This document shows, piece after piece, positions 1 to 4,331 of a stretch of DNA of 4,331 nt. The notes beneath the pieces are model-generated. The model made no database searches. It was not told the DNA's origin and saw nothing but the letters and a program-made list of their open reading frames with translations. The position numbers and the translations under genes are program-made. How positions within the stretch are numbered: the first letter of the stretch is position 1; each line of letters opens with the position of its first letter. The DNA lies in the IMG/VR virus record IMGVR_UViG_2671180460_000008, positions 1 through 4,331 of that record; one strand, 5' to 3'. The DNA comes from a virus. Its lineage: Duplodnaviria > Heunggongvirae > Uroviricota > Caudoviricetes.

Positions 1-84
1 GCCGCAGAGCTGGGAACTGCCATCGAATGGGGCGGGGACTGGAAAACACTGAAAGACGGACCTCACTTTCAGTTGAAACGCTGA
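1..84 (+). CDS. 3' end of an upstream gene (5'-truncated by the window); possibly the C-terminus of a peptidase M15 (VanY-like) endolysin
   Basis: Frame 1 is open from base 1 to TGA at 82-84 and translates AAELGTAIEWGGDWKTLKDGPHFQLKR. The WGGDW...DGPHFxL pattern resembles the C-terminal metal-binding region (D-x-x-H) of M15 L-Ala-D-Glu peptidase endolysins as I recall them, e.g. the T5 endolysin ending ...DGGHVELV. Position immediately upstream of cos fits a lysis-cassette gene. Only 27 residues are visible. Confidence 0.35.
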   Translation, partial: AAELGTAIEWGGDWKTLKDGPHFQLKR

Positions 85-98
85 TAACCAGGTGTGTT

Positions 99-218
99 AT
101 GAGCCGAAAACACTGGACACACAGAATGCCGCGAACGGCGGCGAAATGGGCGCTGGTAGCGATACTGGTGTCTTTTTTGTTTATCCTGATCATTCAGATA
201 AGCAGAGTATTTTGCTGA
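99..218 (+). CDS. Hypothetical 39-aa single-pass membrane peptide (basic N-terminus plus one hydrophobic helix)
   Basis: ATG at 99 lies 14 nt after the upstream stop and is preceded by AGGTG at 90-94 (short 4-nt spacer). Translation is MSRKHWTHRMPRTAAKWALVAILVSFLFILIIQISRVFC: a basic N-terminus followed by an uninterrupted hydrophobic stretch of about 20 residues. No homolog recognised; could be a truncated i-spanin N-terminus or a chance ORF. Confidence 0.25.
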   Translation: MSRKHWTHRMPRTAAKWALVAILVSFLFILIIQISRVFC

Positions 219-361
219 AAATGAAGGGTGCACCAGCGCCCGGAAAGCATGAGATTCTGCTGCGTGTGCCAATTTTATCTTATTCATTCTAAATCTTGCC
301 GAATCAAGATGAACTTTGATCAACTGCCCGGCGGCAAGGGGCATTAAAACAGGAGAAAATT

Positions 362-469
362 ATGTGGAAACCTACAGGTGACAAGTTAATCACCGCGTTG
401 ATTGACGGCAAGCCACAATACTTACGCATTGAAATGAGTGGTCAGCATGCTCGTTTGATTCGTGAGTAA
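362..469 (+). CDS. Hypothetical 35-aa protein
   Basis: ATG at 362 is preceded by a strong Shine-Dalgarno AGGAG at 351-355 with a 6-nt spacer; stop TAA at 467-469. Translation is MWKPTGDKLITALIDGKPQYLRIEMSGQHARLIRE. No homolog recognised. Confidence 0.35.
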   Translation: MWKPTGDKLITALIDGKPQYLRIEMSGQHARLIRE

Positions 470-480
470 CAGGCATTACA

Positions 481-507
481 GCAGCCCTTCACACACTGAG
501 GGGCTGC
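481..507. other. Inverted repeat able to form a hairpin (7-bp GC-rich stem, 13-nt loop)
   Basis: GCAGCCC at 481-487 is the exact reverse complement of GGGCTGC at 501-507. There is no U-tract after it on the + strand, so it is not a canonical intrinsic terminator for the 35-aa ORF. Confidence 0.3.
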
Positions 508-517
508 GATAATGTGA

Positions 518-560
518 GAAATAAAAAACCGGTCACAGGGAGCAGCTACACAGAACCGGC
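518..560 (-). terminator. Weak candidate Rho-independent terminator on the minus strand (repeat element copy A)
   Basis: On the minus strand a short stem (CCGGT ... ACCGG, with a long loop) is followed immediately by TTTTTTATTTC. The + strand reads GAAATAAAAAACCGGTCACAGGG at 518-540. The stem is only 5 bp, so this is weak. Confidence 0.2.
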
Positions 561-650
561 TGGCGAAGACCGCCAATATCACCCGGGCATCGGTACAACA
601 TACTTATGACAATAGACGGTATTGATGTAAATGCAATGTTATGCATCGAC

Positions 651-700
651 GAAAATAAAAAACCGGCAGGGGAAATCCATTGAAGATTTGCCGGTGGCAA
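651..700 (-). terminator. Candidate Rho-independent terminator on the minus strand (repeat element copy B)
   Basis: Minus strand reads CACCGGCAAATCTTCAATGGATTTCCCCTGCCGGTTTTTTATTTTCG: an outer stem CCGGCA / TGCCGG with inner AAATC / GATTT pairing, followed by a T6AT4 tract. The + strand carries the same A-rich CCGG core as copy A (GAAAATAAAAAACCGGCAGGGG at 651-670). Confidence 0.3.
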
Positions 701-838
701 AAGATGGCCATGCTTTCAACTTTAGTCGCAGGGTTACGGAGTGCAACAACGAATGCCACAGGTATATGGCTGAATGGCGTTGCAATGATGTACGTCATCT
801 TATCTGTAAATGTTAATGATAAATGCTCTCATTTGCGC

Positions 839-851
839 GGGTCCTTTCCGG
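839..851 (+). promoter_or_regulatory. cosQ-like element (packaging termination signal)
   Basis: GGGTCCTTTCCGG at 839-851 is identical to the 13 bp I recall at the right end of lambda DNA (GGGTCCTTTCCGG, about 17 bp before the cosN nick), which contains the cosQ heptamer GGGTCCT. Confidence 0.5.
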
Positions 852-859
852 AATCTGAA

Positions 860-890
860 ACACCGGGGGTCATGGGACGCGCAAAAACGC
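860..890 (+). promoter_or_regulatory. Predicted cosN (terminase nicking site); core sequence differs from lambda
   Basis: Located by two conserved flanks: the cosQ-like block upstream (839-851) and CGCTATTTATGAAAATTTT downstream (890-908), which matches lambda bases about 23-41. Counting from either flank puts the start of a 12-nt cohesive end at about 868-869. The local sequence CACCGGGGGTCATGGGACGCGC is not the lambda GGGCGGCGACCT. Confidence 0.45.
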
Positions 891-917
891 GCTATTTATG
901 AAAATTTTTCGAGTTCC

Positions 918-929
918 ACTTCCGGTTTT
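918..929 (+). repeat. R3-like arm of a 12-bp perfect inverted repeat (ACTTCCGGTTTT)
   Basis: ACTTCCGGTTTT at 918-929 is the exact reverse complement of AAAACCGGAAGT at 973-984. Confidence 0.5.
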
Positions 930-938
930 TTAATTATC

Positions 939-951
939 TAACCAATTGATT
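939..951 (-). promoter_or_regulatory. IHF binding site candidate (I1-like)
   Basis: The reverse complement of 939-951 is AATCAATTGGTTA, a full match to the IHF consensus WATCAANNNNTTR. It lies between the two inverted repeat arms, as I1 lies between R3 and R2 in lambda. Confidence 0.45.
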
Positions 952-972
952 AGATTGTTTTTAGTTATCAAG

Positions 973-984
973 AAAACCGGAAGT
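973..984 (+). repeat. R2-like arm of the 12-bp perfect inverted repeat (AAAACCGGAAGT)
   Basis: Exact reverse complement of 918-929. A related copy, AAAAACGGAGTT, occurs at 1013-1024. Confidence 0.5.
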
Positions 985-1053
985 CCGACCAGTTTGTGGG
1001 AAAATAGCGGCAAAAACGGAGTTGAGTGTAAAGTGAACAGCTAAAGAGGGTGT

Positions 1054-1563
1054 ATGGCAACGCAGGCGGAGGTAGCCGAGCATCTTGGTATAACTGAACG
1101 CTGGTTGCGGGATCTTCAGAAGCACCCGGGAGCGCCAAAAAATCGAAAGCGTGGTGAATACGATATTGATGCCTGGCGATATTTTTATATTTCATACCTT
1201 AAACGCAAAGGAAGAAGCGATTCTGATGACGATGGAAATAGCGATTACGAAGAAAAATTACTTATCGCCAGATGGAAATTGACTGAAGAACAGGCAATAG
1301 CACAGCAATTAAAAAATCAGGTAACCGAAGGCAAGCTCATTGATTCTGGGTTCTGCGTTTTCGCTCTCAGCAAACTGGCGATGGCATTGTCCAGTACGCT
1401 TGATTCCATTCCTTTATCCATGCAGCGACAGTTCCCGGATTTAACCCCGCGTCATATCGATTATCTGAAAACCCTTATCGCAAAAGGCGCGAATCAGTGT
1501 GCGCGGACAGGGGATAAATTGCCGGAGTTACTCGATGAATATATCCGAACTACAGCTGAATAA
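1054..1563 (+). CDS. nu1: Terminase small subunit (lambda gpNu1 family)
   Basis: 169-aa ORF directly downstream of cos. The C-terminal half (GFCVFALSKLAMALSSTLDSIPLSMQRQFPDLTPRHIDYLK ... LPELLDEYI) aligns with the lambda Nu1 C-terminus as I recall it (AFCTFVLSRIAGEIASILDGLPLSVQRRFPELENRHVDFLK ... IPGLLSEYI). The N-terminus (TQAEVAEHLGITERWLRDL) looks like a helix-turn-helix but diverges from lambda. The 3' end overlaps the large-subunit start by 29 nt, as in lambda. SD AGAGGG at 1045-1050. Confidence 0.9.
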   Translation: MATQAEVAEHLGITERWLRDLQKHPGAPKNRKRGEYDIDAWRYFYISYLKRKGRSDSDDDGNSDYEEKLLIARWKLTEEQAIAQQLKNQVTEGKLIDSGFCVFALSKLAMALSSTLDSIPLSMQRQFPDLTPRHIDYLKTLIAKGANQCARTGDKLPELLDEYIRTTAE

Positions 1564-3451
1564 TATGATGGCTGCTGTTTCAGTTGCGCTGCAGCCTCTG
1601 GTCAGGGTTGTACCGATGACGGCAGTTGAATGGGCTGATCAAAATTATTATCTGCCTAAAGAATCGTCATACGGTGATGGGGAATGGAAAACACTGCCGT
1701 TCCAGGTCGCCATTATGAACAGCATGGGGCACGACAGGATCCGCACTGTTAATCTGATTAAATCGGCGCGTGTGGGTTACACCAAAATGCTGCTGGGCGT
1801 GGTCGGGTATTTTATTGAGCATAAATCCCGTAACAGCCTGCTCTTCCAGCCGACAGATTCCGCAGCTGAAGATTTTATGAAAGCGCATGTGGAAGCAACG
1901 CTCCGGGATGTCCCCAGCCTTAAAGCGTTATCGCCATGGCTGGGCAGAAAACATCGTGACAACACACTCACCCTGAAGCGTTTTTCCTCCGGCGTGGGGT
2001 TCTGGTGCCTGGGGGGTGCCGCTGCTAAAAACTACCGTGAAAAATCAGTGGATGTGGTCTGCTATGACGAACTCTCCTCGTTTGAACCGGATGTGGAAAA
2101 GGAAGGCTCGCCAACGCTGCTTGGCGATAAACGTATCGAAGGTTCGGTATGGCCTAAATCCATACGCGGCTCAACGCCAAAAATTAAAGGCTCCTGCCAG
2201 ATTGAGAAAGCGGCGAATGAATCTGCGCATTTCATGCGGTTTTATGTCCCTTGCCCTCATTGCGGGGAGGCCCAGTATCTGAAGTTTGGCGATGATGCGA
2301 CGCCGTTTGGCCTGAAATGGGAGAAGGGTAAACCGGAAACGGTGTATTACCTGTGTGAACATAATGGCTGTGTGATCCGCCAGTCGGAACTTGACCAGAC
2401 CGACGGACGCTGGATTTGTGACAATACCGGGATGTGGACGCGTGACGGCCTGACATTTTACAGTGCCGGTGATGAGGAAATCCCGCCACCGCGCTCAATT
2501 TCGTACCACATCTGGACGGCATACAGCCCGTTCACCACCTGGGTACAGATTGTTTATGACTGGCTCGATGCACTGAAGGATCCGAATGGCGTCAAGACGT
2601 TCATTAACACCACGCTCGGGGAGCCCTATGAAGAGGCTGTGGCGGAAAAACTGAGCTTTGAGTTGTTACTGGAAAAGGTCTGTCACTATGGTGCGCAGGT
2701 TCCCCTGCGGGTGGTTTACCTGACCGCCGGGATCGACTCCCAGAAAGATCGCTATGAAATTTATGTCTGGGGCTGGGCTCCCGGCGAAGAAGCCTTTCTG
2801 ATTGACAAGCAAATTATCATGGGGCGACCGGAGGACGAGGACACCCTTAAACGTGTTGATGCGGTGATCCGGAAAAAATACCGCCATGCTGACGGTACTG
2901 AAATTTCCATTTCCCGCGTCTGCTGGGATACCGGTGGTATCGACCAGGACATTGTGTATCAGCGATCCAGAAAACACGGCACTTTTTTTGTGCTTCCCAT
3001 AAAAGGGGCATCGGTGTATGGCAAGCCGGTGATCACCATGCCCAAAAAGCGCAACCAGCGTGGTGTGTTTTTGTGTGAGGTGGGCTCCGATACCGTCAAG
3101 GAAATGCTGTACGCCCGTTTTGCCCTGCCGGTGGTTTCTGCCAGTGAAGCAGCCCCGTATACCTTCCGTTTTCCGGATAACCCGGACATTTTTTCGGAAG
3201 AAGAGGCGCGTCAAATCGTAGCGGAAGAACTGGTGGAAAAGGTGGTTAACGGCAGGGTGAAACTGCTGTGGGATAAAAAAGGGCGACGCAACGAAGCCCT
3301 CGACTGCCTGGTATATGCTTATGCCGCCCTGCGCGTTTCGGTACAGCGGTGGCAACTGGACCTTGACGCGCTGGCGAGGTCACGAAGAGATGAGCAGGAT
3401 GAGGATGATATGAGCATGGAAGAGATCGCGGCTGCACTGAGTGGAGGATAA
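1535..3451 (+). CDS. A: Terminase large subunit (lambda gpA family; ATPase plus endonuclease)
   Basis: Near-collinear similarity to lambda gpA along the whole length, from MNIS... at the N-terminus to ...ALSG at the C-terminus. Conserved at lambda-equivalent positions: Y46 (1670-1672), Walker A-like KSARVGYT at residues 76-83 (1760-1783), Walker B D178/E179 in VDVVCYDEL (2066-2071), and the Cys cluster CPHCG ... CEHNGC (2252-2263 and 2354-2371). Start set to ATG 1535 (GGAG at 1524-1527, 7-nt spacer), which reproduces the lambda N-terminus; the ORF track instead extends to an in-frame GTG at 1499. Confidence 0.95.
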   Translation: MNISELQLNNMMAAVSVALQPLVRVVPMTAVEWADQNYYLPKESSYGDGEWKTLPFQVAIMNSMGHDRIRTVNLIKSARVGYTKMLLGVVGYFIEHKSRNSLLFQPTDSAAEDFMKAHVEATLRDVPSLKALSPWLGRKHRDNTLTLKRFSSGVGFWCLGGAAAKNYREKSVDVVCYDELSSFEPDVEKEGSPTLLGDKRIEGSVWPKSIRGSTPKIKGSCQIEKAANESAHFMRFYVPCPHCGEAQYLKFGDDATPFGLKWEKGKPETVYYLCEHNGCVIRQSELDQTDGRWICDNTGMWTRDGLTFYSAGDEEIPPPRSISYHIWTAYSPFTTWVQIVYDWLDALKDPNGVKTFINTTLGEPYEEAVAEKLSFELLLEKVCHYGAQVPLRVVYLTAGIDSQKDRYEIYVWGWAPGEEAFLIDKQIIMGRPEDEDTLKRVDAVIRKKYRHADGTEISISRVCWDTGGIDQDIVYQRSRKHGTFFVLPIKGASVYGKPVITMPKKRNQRGVFLCEVGSDTVKEMLYARFALPVVSASEAAPYTFRFPDNPDIFSEEEARQIVAEELVEKVVNGRVKLLWDKKGRRNEALDCLVYAYAALRVSVQRWQLDLDALARSRRDEQDEDDMSMEEIAAALSGG

Positions 3452-3454
3452 AGG

Positions 3455-3664
3455 ATGGTTTATACGCATGAAATGCTTTGTGAGGCGCGTCGGGCATTAC
3501 ATGAACTGATGATCGGGCGTGCTGTGGTTTCTGTCGGCAGGAACGGACGGCAGGTTCAGTATTCGCGTGCGACGATTGGTGAACTGCGGCAATACATTGA
3601 AGAGCTGGAGAGTGCGCTGGGCGTGTCCGGACGGCGTCGCGGTCCGGTGGGAGTGAGACTGTGA
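3455..3664 (+). CDS. W: Head completion / head-tail joining protein (lambda gpW family)
   Basis: 69-aa ORF starting 3 nt after the gpA stop, with SD GGAGG at 3443-3447. It aligns with lambda gpW (68 aa) as I recall it: shared A-R-x-ALH-x-LM-x-G, YI-x-ELE and RRRGP-x-G motifs. Gene order Nu1-A-W-B matches lambda. Confidence 0.9.
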   Translation: MVYTHEMLCEARRALHELMIGRAVVSVGRNGRQVQYSRATIGELRQYIEELESALGVSGRRRGPVGVRL

Positions 3665-4331
3665 ATGTGGAGTTGATAGATGTTCACGGACAGCCCCTGC
3701 GACAGAGTATGGGATATTCCGGTGGCGGCTCCGGATTTGGTGGGCAGCTTGCGGAATGGTTACCTGCGCCGGAAAGTGCCGATGTGGCGCTGCTGCCTTC
3801 CATTCAGTTGGGTAATGCCCGTGCGGATGATCTGGTCCGTAATAATGGCATTGCCGCGAATGCTGTGGAAATTCATAAAGACCATATCGTCGGGCATATG
3901 TTTCGTCTGAGTTATCGCCCCAACTGGCGCTGGCTGGGGATGTCGGAAGCAGATTCACATGCTTTTATTGAAGATGTTGAGGCGGCGTGGATGGAATACT
4001 GCGATCCGGTGTTTGGTACGATGGATGTGGAAGGGCGTCGTTCGTTTACCGAATTCATTCGTGAAGGGGTGGGTGTCCATACTTTTAATGGAGAAATTTT
4101 TGTCCAGCCTGTATGGGATGCGGAATCCACGTCATTATTCCGGACGAAATTCAAAACCATCAGCCCGAAGCGTGTCAGTACACCCGGTTATGGTACCGGC
4201 GATCGTTTTATGCGTGCCGGGGTGGAAATAAACCGACACGGAAAAGCGCTGGCCTACCATGTTCAGGATGATGACTGGCCCGGCTACGGTGTCAGTAAAT
4301 GGACACGAATTACGGCAACACTGCCTTCCGG
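3661..4331 (+). CDS. B: Portal protein (lambda gpB family), 5' portion; 3' end beyond the window
   Basis: Frame 1 is open from 3601 to the window end. Translation contains YSGGGSGFGGQL, LLPSIQLGNARADDLVRNNGIAANA, HKDHIVG, FRLSYRPNWRWLG, VEAAW, IREGV, FNGEIFVQ, LFRTKFKTISPKRVS, matching the lambda gpB N-terminal region as I recall it. Proposed start is GTG 3661 (GGGAG at 3649-3653, 7-nt spacer; overlaps the gpW stop as GTGA); the first ATG at 3709 has no SD. Confidence 0.85.
   Translation, partial: MNVELIDVHGQPLRQSMGYSGGGSGFGGQLAEWLPAPESADVALLPSIQLGNARADDLVRNNGIAANAVEIHKDHIVGHMFRLSYRPNWRWLGMSEADSHAFIEDVEAAWMEYCDPVFGTMDVEGRRSFTEFIREGVGVHTFNGEIFVQPVWDAESTSLFRTKFKTISPKRVSTPGYGTGDRFMRAGVEINRHGKALAYHVQDDDWPGYGVSKWTRITATLPS

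What the first reader, a model, noticed from the sequence alone, without database searches (positions are those of the whole stretch)
85..350. No recognisable spanin genes after the endolysin-like gene; a 39-aa membrane micro-ORF sits there instead
In lambda-type lysis cassettes the endolysin is normally followed by an i-spanin (Rz, about 150 aa, N-terminal TM then periplasmic coiled coil) with an embedded or following o-spanin lipoprotein (Rz1). Here the only plausible ORF after the stop at 84 is a 39-aa peptide with an Rz-like start (basic N-terminus, one TM helix) that terminates right after the helix. The overlapping frames show no coiled coil and no lipobox. Possibilities are a truncated or decayed i-spanin, spanin genes located elsewhere, or a small membrane peptide with its own function (holin-like modulator or type I toxin-like). 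The endolysin call itself rests on only 27 C-terminal residues.
Basis: partly seen in the sequence, partly recalled or inferred. Interest (0 to 1): 0.5.

Follow-up and report, generated by a model that had tools for sequence, protein, structure and literature searches.

The report
Truncated remnant of phage lysis lipoprotein gene
The 39-codon "membrane micro-ORF" after the endolysin is what is left of a conserved 60-residue prophage lipoprotein gene (a computationally predicted outer-membrane spanin) after a 92-base deletion, so it is a broken gene and not a new kind of peptide.

Summary
An ORF at 99-218 (39 aa, AGGTG ribosome-binding site, basic N-terminus, one hydrophobic stretch) follows the stop of an M15 endolysin. 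There is no Rz/Rz1 and no + strand lipobox before the terminase genes.

The ORF is a remnant, not an independent gene. In 87 related loci (phiP27, pPE4, an Stx2k phage, prophages of E. coli, Salmonella and Citrobacter) the same start codon opens a 60-aa lipoprotein gene: MSRKHWTHRMPRTAAKWALVAILVPFLLVG|CVSLDKARQLFDTASQVC..DGVRQC.QN. Its lipobox and three cysteines are invariant, and pN/pS is about 0.19.

The window matches codons 1-27. It then lacks 92 nt (lipobox plus the whole mature peptide) and reads out of frame into the former 3' flank. The "TM helix" is therefore the signal-peptide core plus a frameshifted tail. A second assembly carries the identical allele. No complete E. coli genome or IMG/VR contig searched does.

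Kongari et al. (2018) listed this phiP27 lipoprotein as an o-spanin. The i-spanin they paired with it looks spurious. No i-spanin-like ORF accompanies the gene in 90 loci or in one complete prophage, so how the intact protein works remains open.

The window itself shows ordinary gene decay, so interest is low.

The parts
1..84 (+). 3' end (last 27 codons plus stop) of a 125-aa M15 family endolysin (L-alanyl-D-glutamate peptidase type)
   Evidence: L008 is 100% identical and extends upstream to show the full gene with a PF13539 hit. Homologues are annotated as M15 metallopeptidase or endolysin. They match Pfam Peptidase_M15_4 and phrog_465 endolysin.
90..94 (+). Shine-Dalgarno-like AGGTG, 4 nt upstream of the ATG at 99. 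This is the translation start signal inherited from the intact lipoprotein gene.
   Evidence: Read directly from the sequence. The same spacing occurs in L003, where the 60-aa gene starts 15 nt after the endolysin stop.
99..218 (+). 39-aa ORF, the pseudogene remnant of the 60-aa lysis-cassette lipoprotein gene (phrog_7528; predicted phiP27 o-spanin). Codons 1-27 are homologous to the signal peptide n- and h-regions, with a P25S change. Codons 28-39 are junction-proximal or frameshifted sequence.
   Evidence: blastn shows window 99-181 is 92-97% identical to the 5' end of the gene in L001-L005. Alignment A1. phrog_7528 match covers profile positions 1-36 of 60. tblastn matches query residues 1-36 only in L008 and L009, against 1-60 in 85 other loci.
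181..201 (+). Deletion junction. About 19 nt stand here where relatives have about 111 nt. MAFFT places a 92-nt gap between window positions 184 and 185. The lipobox LVGC, the lipidated Cys31, the entire 30-residue mature peptide and the original stop are lost.
   Evidence: The 92-nt gap is present against all five reference loci. 92 is not a multiple of 3, so the reading frame shifts.
201..260 (+). Former 3' flank of the lipoprotein gene. Its first part is now read out of frame up to the TGA at 216-218.
   Evidence: Window 201-260 aligns to L003 4293-4353, and window 201-1100 aligns to L005 4195-5091 at 97.9%.
362..469 (+). 35-aa ORF with a strong AGGAG ribosome-binding site. It is a short variant that shares its C-terminal ~25 residues with the 132/148-aa phrog_1935 protein found at this place in other relatives. 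It is context for the mosaic, decay-prone region between lysis and packaging genes.
   Evidence: phrog_8025 matches the C-terminus of the long form. The ORF is called as a gene in L008. The short form is shared with L005 and pPE4.

Best explanation
Window 99-218 is a disrupted copy of a conserved late gene that follows the endolysin in phiP27-type lysis cassettes (holin PF16931, holin PF05449, M15 or GH108 endolysin, small lipoprotein). The intact gene encodes a 60-aa prolipoprotein with a 30-residue signal peptide, an invariant L-V-G-C lipobox, and a 30-residue amphipathic, probably helical, mature peptide with two further invariant cysteines.

Shown: in the window a net 92-nt deletion removed the lipobox and the whole mature part and shifted the frame. 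Translation from the original ribosome-binding site and ATG would give a 39-aa peptide. That peptide would consist of the signal-peptide n- and h-regions fused to 12 residues that are junction-proximal or read from the old 3' flank.

Inferred: with no lipobox, the peptide could not be lipid-modified, cleaved by signal peptidase II or sorted to the outer membrane. At most it would stay in the inner membrane as an N-in signal anchor. Whatever the lipoprotein contributes is lost in this prophage. From its position, that contribution is most likely the outer-membrane step of lysis.
For: (1) Alignment A1 and blastn: window 99-181 and 201 onwards are collinear with five reference loci at 88-98% identity. 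The window has about 19 nt where each reference has 111-114 nt.
(2) 85 of 87 loci with the gene carry the full 60 codons. M1, the lipobox LVG, C31, C48 and C57 are invariant. Variable sites by codon position are 15/15/34. pN/pS is 0.24 for the signal part and 0.16 for the mature part. The full-length frame is therefore the selected one, and the mature peptide is needed.
(3) The 39-aa peptide matches only positions 1-36 of phrog_7528, while the 60-aa form matches 1-60 at E = 3.4e-37.
(4) The allele is real and rare. L008, from a different assembly, is 100% identical across it. The junction is absent from IMG/VR. In complete E. coli genomes, all 12 listed best places for window 95-300 (280 of 5,426 genomes have a match) are two pieces spanning about 299 nt, which is the undeleted form.
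(5) Other independent truncations and fusions of the same gene exist in databases (P0123, P0127, P0130, P0133, P0135), so decay of this gene recurs.
(6) Context: the gene lies downstream of the holin-holin-endolysin block in every locus with enough flank. In about half of them it starts 15 nt after the M15 stop, as in the window.
(7) Gene callers did not in either source assembly.
Against: The junction is not a clean breakpoint. The 6 nt before and about 20 nt after the gap carry several mismatches to all references. The event may have been complex, or followed by drift, and no microhomology explains it.

The ribosome-binding site and start codon are intact, so a peptide may still be made. Nothing here tests whether it is translated or harmless.

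The window is a 4.3-kb contig, so the holins and the rest of this prophage were not seen directly.
Confidence: 0.9

Rival explanations
1. The 39-aa ORF is a functional small inner-membrane peptide in its own right, such as a holin modulator, a type I toxin-like peptide, or a neofunctionalised signal anchor expressed with the late lysis genes.
For: The Shine-Dalgarno sequence and ATG are intact, 15 nt after the endolysin stop. The hydrophobic segment is strong (Kyte-Doolittle 2.59 over 19 residues) and is preceded by a +5 n-region. The retained signal-peptide part is itself well conserved in the family. From general knowledge, the cleaved signal peptide of the pCloDF13 bacteriocin release protein is stable and biologically active, so a signal peptide with its own activity has a precedent.
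Against: The allele was found only in the window's own contig and one identical contig from a second assembly (each contig listed for 2-3 samples), against 85 intact copies. Residues 28-39 are junction-proximal or frameshifted former 3' flank. There is no toxin, holin or defence family match. There is no Rfam antisense or other RNA family match and no promoter-like site in 1-1100. The ORF was not called by the assemblies' gene finders.
Confidence: 0.04
2. The ORF is a truncated or decayed i-spanin (Rz-type).
For: A basic N-terminus followed by one hydrophobic helix is also how i-spanins begin, and the ORF sits where Rz sits in lambda.
Against: The full-length homologues are 60-aa lipoproteins in which an invariant lipobox follows that helix. 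They match no PHROG 'Rz-like spanin' family and not lambda Rz. By contrast, true Rz-like proteins after related M15 endolysins are recognised easily: phrog_214 at 1.5e-39 and phrog_13 at 2e-42.
Confidence: 0.02
3. The 92-nt gap is an assembly or sequencing artefact, and the real genome carries an intact lipoprotein gene.
For: The window is a short contig from a draft assembly. It begins and ends inside genes (endolysin, portal), which suggests repeat-induced contig breaks and several related prophages in the genome.
Against: A contig from a different assembly (GCA_009799095.1) is 100% identical over 4,045 nt including the junction, and each contig is listed for 2-3 samples. A collapse artefact would not usually produce the extra junction-proximal substitutions seen.
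Confidence: 0.03
4. Nothing about spanins is lost, because the parent lipoprotein is not a lysis protein at all. It could be a moron such as an exclusion or serum-resistance lipoprotein, like Bor, which lies next to Rz in lambda. The deletion would then be irrelevant to lysis.
For: The family has no demonstrated function and is labelled 'hypothetical' or 'lipoprotein' everywhere. Its 30-residue, proline-free, helical mature part is unlike typical o-spanins, and it has no i-spanin partner. Unrelated genes (KilA-N, small TM proteins, a 93-aa protein) are often inserted between it and the endolysin.
Against: It is always co-oriented with and downstream of the lysis block, across two endolysin types and at least two holin sets. 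It often starts 15 nt after, or overlapping, the endolysin end. These cassettes contain no other spanin candidate. The closest M15 endolysins elsewhere are followed by canonical spanins in the same slot. This rival concerns the function of the intact family, not the identity of the window ORF.
Confidence: 0.25

Closest known systems
Predicted o-spanin of Stx2e phage phiP27 (NC_003356 20706-20861, 51 aa as called by Kongari et al. 2018, PMC6139136; family phrog_7528)
   Same: It is the same gene family. The first 83 nt of the window ORF are 93% identical to the phiP27 copy, and the intact relatives are 88-100% identical to each other in protein. They occupy the same position downstream of the same holin-holin-endolysin block.
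   Different: The window copy lacks 92 nt, so it has no lipobox and no mature peptide. The 51-aa start chosen in the paper (M10) is not conserved: it is T or I in 7 of 52 alleles, whereas M1 is invariant. The o-spanin label is computational only. The paired 64-aa 'i-spanin' is restricted to phiP27-identical loci and lies antisense to a conserved 90-aa gene.
Lambda Rz1 (o-spanin of the two-component spanin Rz/Rz1)
   Same: For the intact family: a 60-aa precursor with a signal peptidase II lipobox, no Asp at +2 (the outer-membrane sorting rule, from general knowledge), periplasmic cysteines, and a location at the distal end of the lysis cassette.
   Different: No sequence similarity. The mature part is 30 aa, proline-free and predicted helical, whereas Rz1's 40-aa mature part is proline-rich and unstructured. 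The gene is not embedded in or adjacent to an i-spanin gene. The window copy has none of these features left.
T1 gp11 unimolecular spanin
   Same: A single gene in the spanin slot with an N-terminal lipoprotein signal (intact family only).
   Different: u-spanins are about 130 aa and have a C-terminal transmembrane domain that anchors them in the inner membrane. The family's mature peptide is 30 residues with no second hydrophobic segment, too short to span the periplasm.
Colicin lysis proteins / bacteriocin release proteins (Pfam PF02402 Lysis_col)
   Same: Architecture and size of the intact family: a precursor of about 45-60 aa, a lipobox ending in ..LVGC, and a mature lipopeptide of about 28-33 aa that acts on the envelope without a partner spanning the periplasm (general knowledge). 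This is a plausible working analogy for a partner-less lysis lipoprotein.
   Different: No Pfam PF02402 match at E <= 1. The genetic context is different (phage late operon versus colicin operon). No functional data exist.
phiKT gp28 'disruptin' (Holt et al., bioRxiv 10.1101/515445)
   Same: A small protein in a spanin-less lysis cassette that is proposed or shown to disrupt the outer membrane alone, with amphipathic helical character (hydrophobic moment about 0.5).
   Different: The disruptin is described as a cationic antimicrobial peptide (title of 10.1101/515445) and, from general knowledge, is not a lipoprotein. The mature peptide here has net charge 0 and is lipid-anchored.
Type I toxins (Hok/Gef, TisB, Ldr, Ibs)
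   Same: Only the size and single hydrophobic helix of the window's 39-aa product.
   Different: No family match. No antisense RNA family. The ORF arose by deletion of a larger gene.

Membership tests
phrog_7528 / phiP27-type lysis-cassette lipoprotein | Sequence homology to the family profile | tested here: met
   Window peptide: E = 3.9e-14, but only profile positions 1-36 of 60. DNA 99-181 is 92-97% identical to five members.
phrog_7528 / phiP27-type lysis-cassette lipoprotein | Intact lipobox L-V-G-C and the mature peptide with C48 and C57 | tested here: not met
   These features are invariant in 52 unique alleles. They are absent from the window because of the 92-nt deletion. No + strand lipobox occurs in 1-1054. 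The window copy is therefore a pseudogene member.
phrog_7528 / phiP27-type lysis-cassette lipoprotein | Position downstream of, and co-oriented with, the holin-holin-endolysin block | tested here: met
   The window ORF starts 15 nt after the M15 stop. The same arrangement occurs in about half of 87 loci.
o-spanin (Rz1-like; criteria of Kongari et al. 2018) | Signal peptidase II signal with lipobox and outer-membrane sorting residues | tested here: not met
   Not met by the window ORF. Met by the intact relatives, which have LVG|C followed by V or A at +2 and no Asp.
o-spanin (Rz1-like; criteria of Kongari et al. 2018) | A cognate i-spanin gene that embeds, overlaps or adjoins it | tested here: not met
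   No + strand ORF of 70-230 aa with a single N-terminal TMD is conserved within -700 to +2500 nt of the gene in 90 loci. None exists in the whole AJ1 prophage. The published phiP27 partner is not conserved and lies antisense to a conserved gene.
o-spanin (Rz1-like; criteria of Kongari et al. 2018) | Complements an Rz/Rz1 defect, or a knockout gives spherical-cell arrest | not testable with these tools
   Needs lysis assays. No experimental paper was found.
i-spanin (Rz-like) | N-terminal TMD followed by a periplasmic, usually coiled-coil domain of more than about 60 aa, and homology to an Rz-like family | tested here: not met
   The ORF ends 4 residues after the hydrophobic stretch. Its full-length homologues are lipoproteins, not Rz-like. 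No Rz-like PHROG or Pfam hit.
u-spanin (T1 gp11-like) | N-terminal lipobox plus a C-terminal TMD in one chain | tested here: not met
   The intact family has a single hydrophobic segment, which is the signal peptide. Members are 44-71 aa.
Colicin lysis protein / BRP (PF02402) | Match to the Pfam Lysis_col profile | tested here: not met
   No Pfam family at E <= 1 for the 39-aa or the 60-aa protein.
Type I toxin-antitoxin toxin | Toxin family match and a cis or trans antisense RNA | tested here: not met
   No Pfam or NCBIfam toxin match. No Rfam match at E <= 1 in 1-1200. No promoter-like site in 1-1100 on either strand.
M15 endolysin (upstream gene) | Full-length Peptidase_M15_4 domain protein in a lysis cassette | tested here: met
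   L008 is identical to the window and shows the full 125-aa gene with PF13539. A 95-100% identical homologue hits PF13539 (3e-12) and phrog_465 endolysin (3.6e-75).

The most novel reading that the evidence does not exclude
The intact parent family (60-aa lipoprotein, phrog_7528) may be a partner-less outer-membrane disruptor. It would be a third route besides spanins and the cationic disruptin, and would work more like a bacteriocin release lipoprotein than like Rz1. Three observations fit this. It is the only spanin-slot gene in apparently complete, inducible phiP27-type phages. It has no i-spanin. Its 30-residue mature helix cannot bridge the periplasm. On that reading the window is a natural knockout of this function. 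A much less likely extension is that the retained, conserved signal-anchor peptide keeps some activity of its own.
Probability: 0.25. Interest if true: 0.6.

Novelty: already known. Interest (0 to 1): 0.2.

Why it matters
For the window, very little. It is one more example of a prophage late gene broken by a small deletion, and it shows how the remnant of a signal peptide can look like a purpose-built membrane micro-protein.

The work has two by-products for phage-lysis annotation. First, the phiP27-type 'two-component spanin' in the reference spanin census rests on an i-spanin call that does not survive comparison. It lies antisense to a conserved gene and is absent from all other loci. Second, the lipoprotein is an orphan in the spanin slot across about 90 loci, and about 5% of complete E. 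coli genomes carry the region (280 of 5,426). That makes a concrete, cheap experiment worthwhile: does this 60-aa lipoprotein disrupt the outer membrane on its own?

Tried and rejected
- Exact-product look-ups of the 39-aa and 63-aa forms found nothing. The source contig was found through the terminase small subunit instead.
- Pfam, NCBIfam and PADLOC gave no family for the 39-aa or 60-aa proteins or for the neighbouring small TM proteins. The only NCBIfam line (HpsJ-like, 15 bits against a cut-off of 140) is noise.
- A PDB profile search gave only chance-level hits.
- AlphaFold2 on the family alignment gave a single low-confidence helix (pLDDT 68.5). It was not worth a fold search.
- Rfam and the promoter scan of 1-1200 found nothing. 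The terminator-like hit at 148-173 lies inside the ORF and is just the T-run of the signal-peptide codons.
- The scan of one genome per species returned only 3 loci, and the all-protein HMM search only 20 clusters. No distant, longer relatives exist that could reveal a function.
- The idea that the signal peptide is under unusually strong constraint came from alignment A2. Among 54 alleles it was not borne out: pN/pS is 0.24 for the signal part and 0.16 for the mature part.
- tm57 and the 44-aa TM protein upstream of the gene in some loci were considered as unconventional i-spanins. They were rejected because they are optional (absent in about half of loci, including the window type). tm57 is also a C-terminal TMD protein with a basic N-terminus and essentially no periplasmic domain.

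Full report
**What is in the window**

The window is an entire 4,331-nt contig (LIVI01000094.1 of GCA_001420065.1). Its contents are:
- 1-84: the last 27 codons of an endolysin.
- 99-218: the 39-codon ORF of the finding.
- 219-1053: about 830 nt with only small ORFs.
- 1054-1563: a lambda Nu1-like small terminase.
- 1535-3451: gpA-like large terminase.
- 3455-3664: a gpW-like protein.
- 3661 onwards: the start of the portal gene.

AGGTG lies 4 nt before the ATG, which is 15 nt after the endolysin stop. The N-terminus has net charge +5 over residues 1-16, followed by one strongly hydrophobic stretch and a stop four residues later. No + strand frame of 1-1054 has a lipobox. There is no similarity to lambda Rz or Rz1.

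**The upstream gene is an endolysin**

A contig from another assembly (L008, GCA_009799095.1) is 100% identical to window 1-4045. It extends 358 nt further upstream and shows the complete 125-aa gene with a Peptidase_M15_4 domain, preceded by the 3' end of a holin gene. Close homologues hit PF13539 and the endolysin family phrog_465.

**What the ORF is**

Megablast against phages and complete E. coli genomes found relatives of the region: phiP27, Actinobacillus phage pPE4, an Stx2k phage, and prophages in 416 of 5,426 E. coli genomes. In all five loci inspected, the same ATG opens a 60-codon gene:

MSRKHWTHRMPRTAAKWALVAILVPFLLVG|CVSLDKARQLFDTASQVC(Q/E)(L/I)(I/V)DGVRQC(L/M)QN

blastn and MAFFT show the breakpoint:
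- Window 99-181 matches the first 83 nt of that gene at 92-97% identity.
- Window 201 onwards matches the sequence downstream of it.
- The window has about 19 nt where every relative has 111-114 nt.
- The alignment places one 92-nt gap between window positions 184 and 185.

Because 92 is not a multiple of three, the reading frame shifts. It runs through the old 3' flank to a TGA at 216-218. The peptide is therefore residues 1-27 of the signal peptide (with P25S) plus 12 residues that are junction-proximal or frameshifted sequence. PHROGs agrees: the 39-mer matches positions 1-36 of the 60-position phrog_7528, while the 60-mer matches all of it at E = 3.4e-37.

**The full-length form is the selected one, and the window allele is a rare derivative**

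Eighty IMG/VR loci, plus reference and genome loci, were collected.
- 85 of 87 loci carry 60 uninterrupted codons.
- Among 52 unique alleles, M1, the lipobox LVG, C31, C48 and C57 never vary.
- Variable sites fall 15/15/34 by codon position.
- Across 54 unique alleles (the set, which adds the Salmonella and Citrobacter loci), pN/pS is 0.24 in the signal part and 0.16 in the mature part.

The deletion junction is absent from IMG/VR. In complete E. coli genomes, the listed best matches to window 95-300 are all two pieces spanning about 299 nt, which is the undeleted form. The allele is not an assembly artefact, because two assemblies share it base for base. Other independent truncations or fusions of the gene exist in public data, so decay of this gene is recurrent.

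The junction-proximal bases carry extra mismatches. The event was therefore not a simple clean excision, or it has drifted since.

**What the parent gene is known as**

Pfam, NCBIfam, PADLOC and the PDB give nothing for it. PHROGs lists the family as unknown function. Database names are 'hypothetical protein' or 'lipoprotein'.

The spanin census of Kongari et al. (PMC6139136) does list phiP27 as having a 'separated' two-component spanin. Its supplementary tables give:
- o-spanin at 20706-20861, 51 aa, with a 30-residue periplasmic part predicted 83% helical;
- i-spanin at 20348-20542, 64 aa;
- together the shortest periplasmic span in their set, 62 residues.

The o-spanin coordinates are this lipoprotein read from M10. 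M10 is replaced by T or I in 7 of 52 alleles, whereas M1 is invariant, so the 60-aa form is the better call.

The 64-aa 'i-spanin' is a TTG ORF lying antisense to a 90-aa minus-strand gene (phrog_36812). It is found only in phiP27-identical loci. In L039 the minus-strand gene is conserved at 45% identity, while the plus-strand ORF is broken into 25-36-aa pieces. I regard that i-spanin call as spurious.

**Context of the intact gene**

In every locus with enough flank, the gene lies downstream of and co-oriented with two holin-family genes (PF16931, PF05449) and an endolysin. The endolysin is either M15 or GH108.

In about half the loci the gene starts 15 nt after the M15 stop, as in the window. 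In the others, optional genes intervene:
- a 45-60-aa C-terminal-TMD protein;
- a 44-aa TM protein;
- a 93-aa protein;
- a KilA-N protein.

A 58%-identical Lelliottia member overlaps the end of a GH108 endolysin that follows a different, single holin.

No conserved i-spanin-like ORF occurs within -700 to +2500 nt of the gene in 90 loci. In the apparently complete 44-kb prophage of E. coli AJ1, the lipoprotein is the only lipobox ORF, and no i-spanin candidate exists anywhere.

The nearest M15 endolysins outside this cassette type are in vB_EcoM-705R2 (77% identity) and Proteus phage Pm34 (63%). In both, the next gene after the endolysin is a canonical Rz-like i-spanin (phrog_214 and phrog_13). 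In vB_EcoM-705R2 the small overlapping ORF that follows also matches an Rz-like spanin family (phrog_3001); the corresponding 48-aa ORF of Pm34 matched no family.

Pinto et al. (PMC8136144) report Rz in 277 of 279 Stx phages and a metallopeptidase endolysin in two. This is compatible with the M15 cassettes being the Rz-less ones, but that link is my inference.

The family is tiny and confined to Enterobacterales prophages: 20 clusters at 50% identity among 1.84 billion proteins, all 44-71 aa apart from fusions.

**Mechanism**

Shown: the window has lost the lipobox and the whole mature peptide.

Inferred: translation from the intact ribosome-binding site would give a 39-aa N-in signal-anchor peptide. 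It cannot be lipidated, cleaved by signal peptidase II or sorted to the outer membrane, so the lipoprotein's function is abolished.

For the intact protein, the position argues for the outer-membrane step of lysis. Two things argue against a canonical o-spanin: there is no i-spanin, and the 30-residue, uncharged, amphipathic helical mature part (hydrophobic moment about 0.5) could span only a few nanometres. A partner-less disruptor analogous to bacteriocin release lipoproteins, an o-spanin with an unconventional partner, or a non-lysis moron all remain possible. No experiment on this protein was found.

**Verdict**

- The interpretation 'truncated or decayed gene' is right, but the parent is a lipoprotein (predicted o-spanin), not an i-spanin.
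- The readings as a holin modulator or a type I toxin are not supported.
- The feature is ordinary gene decay in a prophage, so interest is low.
- The residual interest lies in the orphan lipoprotein family, whose mode of action is untested.

Noticed in passing
L001 (phiP27) 4239-4433 + strand versus 4223-4495 - strand; L039 3042-3317 - strand: The 64-aa TTG ORF listed as the phiP27 i-spanin in the 2018 spanin census lies antisense to a conserved 90-aa gene (phrog_36812). It is not conserved where that gene is: in L039 only 25-36-aa plus-strand fragments remain. The published two-component spanin assignment for phiP27 therefore looks wrong on the i-spanin side.
   Followed up: yes
window 519-532, 653-666, 911-941, 961-984: AAA(T)AAAAAACCGG motifs are repeated directly (519 and 653) and as an inverted pair flanking 942-960, 70-140 nt upstream of the Nu1-like small terminase gene. 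They are probably terminase-binding or cos-region elements. They were not compared with known cos sites.
   Followed up: no
window 362-469: A 35-aa ORF with a strong AGGAG ribosome-binding site, called as a gene in the sister contig L008. It shares only its C-terminal ~25 residues with the 132/148-aa phrog_1935 protein that occupies this place in other relatives, and it corresponds to a separate short family (phrog_8025). The short form is shared with E. coli PapRG-04-4 and phage pPE4, so it is an older mosaic variant and not specific to this contig.
   Followed up: partly
P0123, P0127, P0130, P0133, P0135: Several other, independent truncated, frameshifted or fused versions of the same lipoprotein gene exist in public data. 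One example is P0123, which joins ...DKARQ to the frame read at window 228-347. The gene is repeatedly inactivated in prophages.
   Followed up: partly
L005 3826-3999, L067 about 4662-4844 and 4862-4996, L048 4826-4999 (upstream of the lipoprotein gene): Optional small membrane-protein genes lie between endolysin and lipoprotein in about half of the loci. [quoted passage not shown] Another is a 44-aa TM protein. Their functions are unknown, and they may be further lysis accessory proteins.
   Followed up: partly
window 1 and 4331 (contig ends): The contig begins inside the endolysin gene and ends inside the portal gene. The sister contig L008 likewise begins inside the preceding holin gene (64 nt upstream of the endolysin start) and ends inside the portal gene. 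This pattern suggests repeat-induced assembly breaks, meaning the source genomes probably hold more than one related prophage, possibly with an intact lipoprotein copy.
   Followed up: no
window 481-507: A GC-rich hairpin (GCAGCCCTTCACACACTGAGGGGCTGC) lies just after the 35-aa ORF. Its surroundings (463-514) are conserved in phiP27 and pPE4 even where the flanks differ. It could be a module-boundary or terminator-like element. No T-run follows it, and the terminator scan did not report it.
   Followed up: no
alignment A2 (family, residues 1-31 versus 32-60): In the more divergent members the signal peptide (H5, T7, H8, R9, L19-L28, G30, C31) has more invariant columns than the mature peptide (only C48 and C57). 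Among 54 closer alleles, however, pN/pS is similar or lower in the mature part (0.16 versus 0.24). The long, conserved, histidine- and arginine-rich n-region is unusual for a lipoprotein signal and is unexplained.
   Followed up: partly
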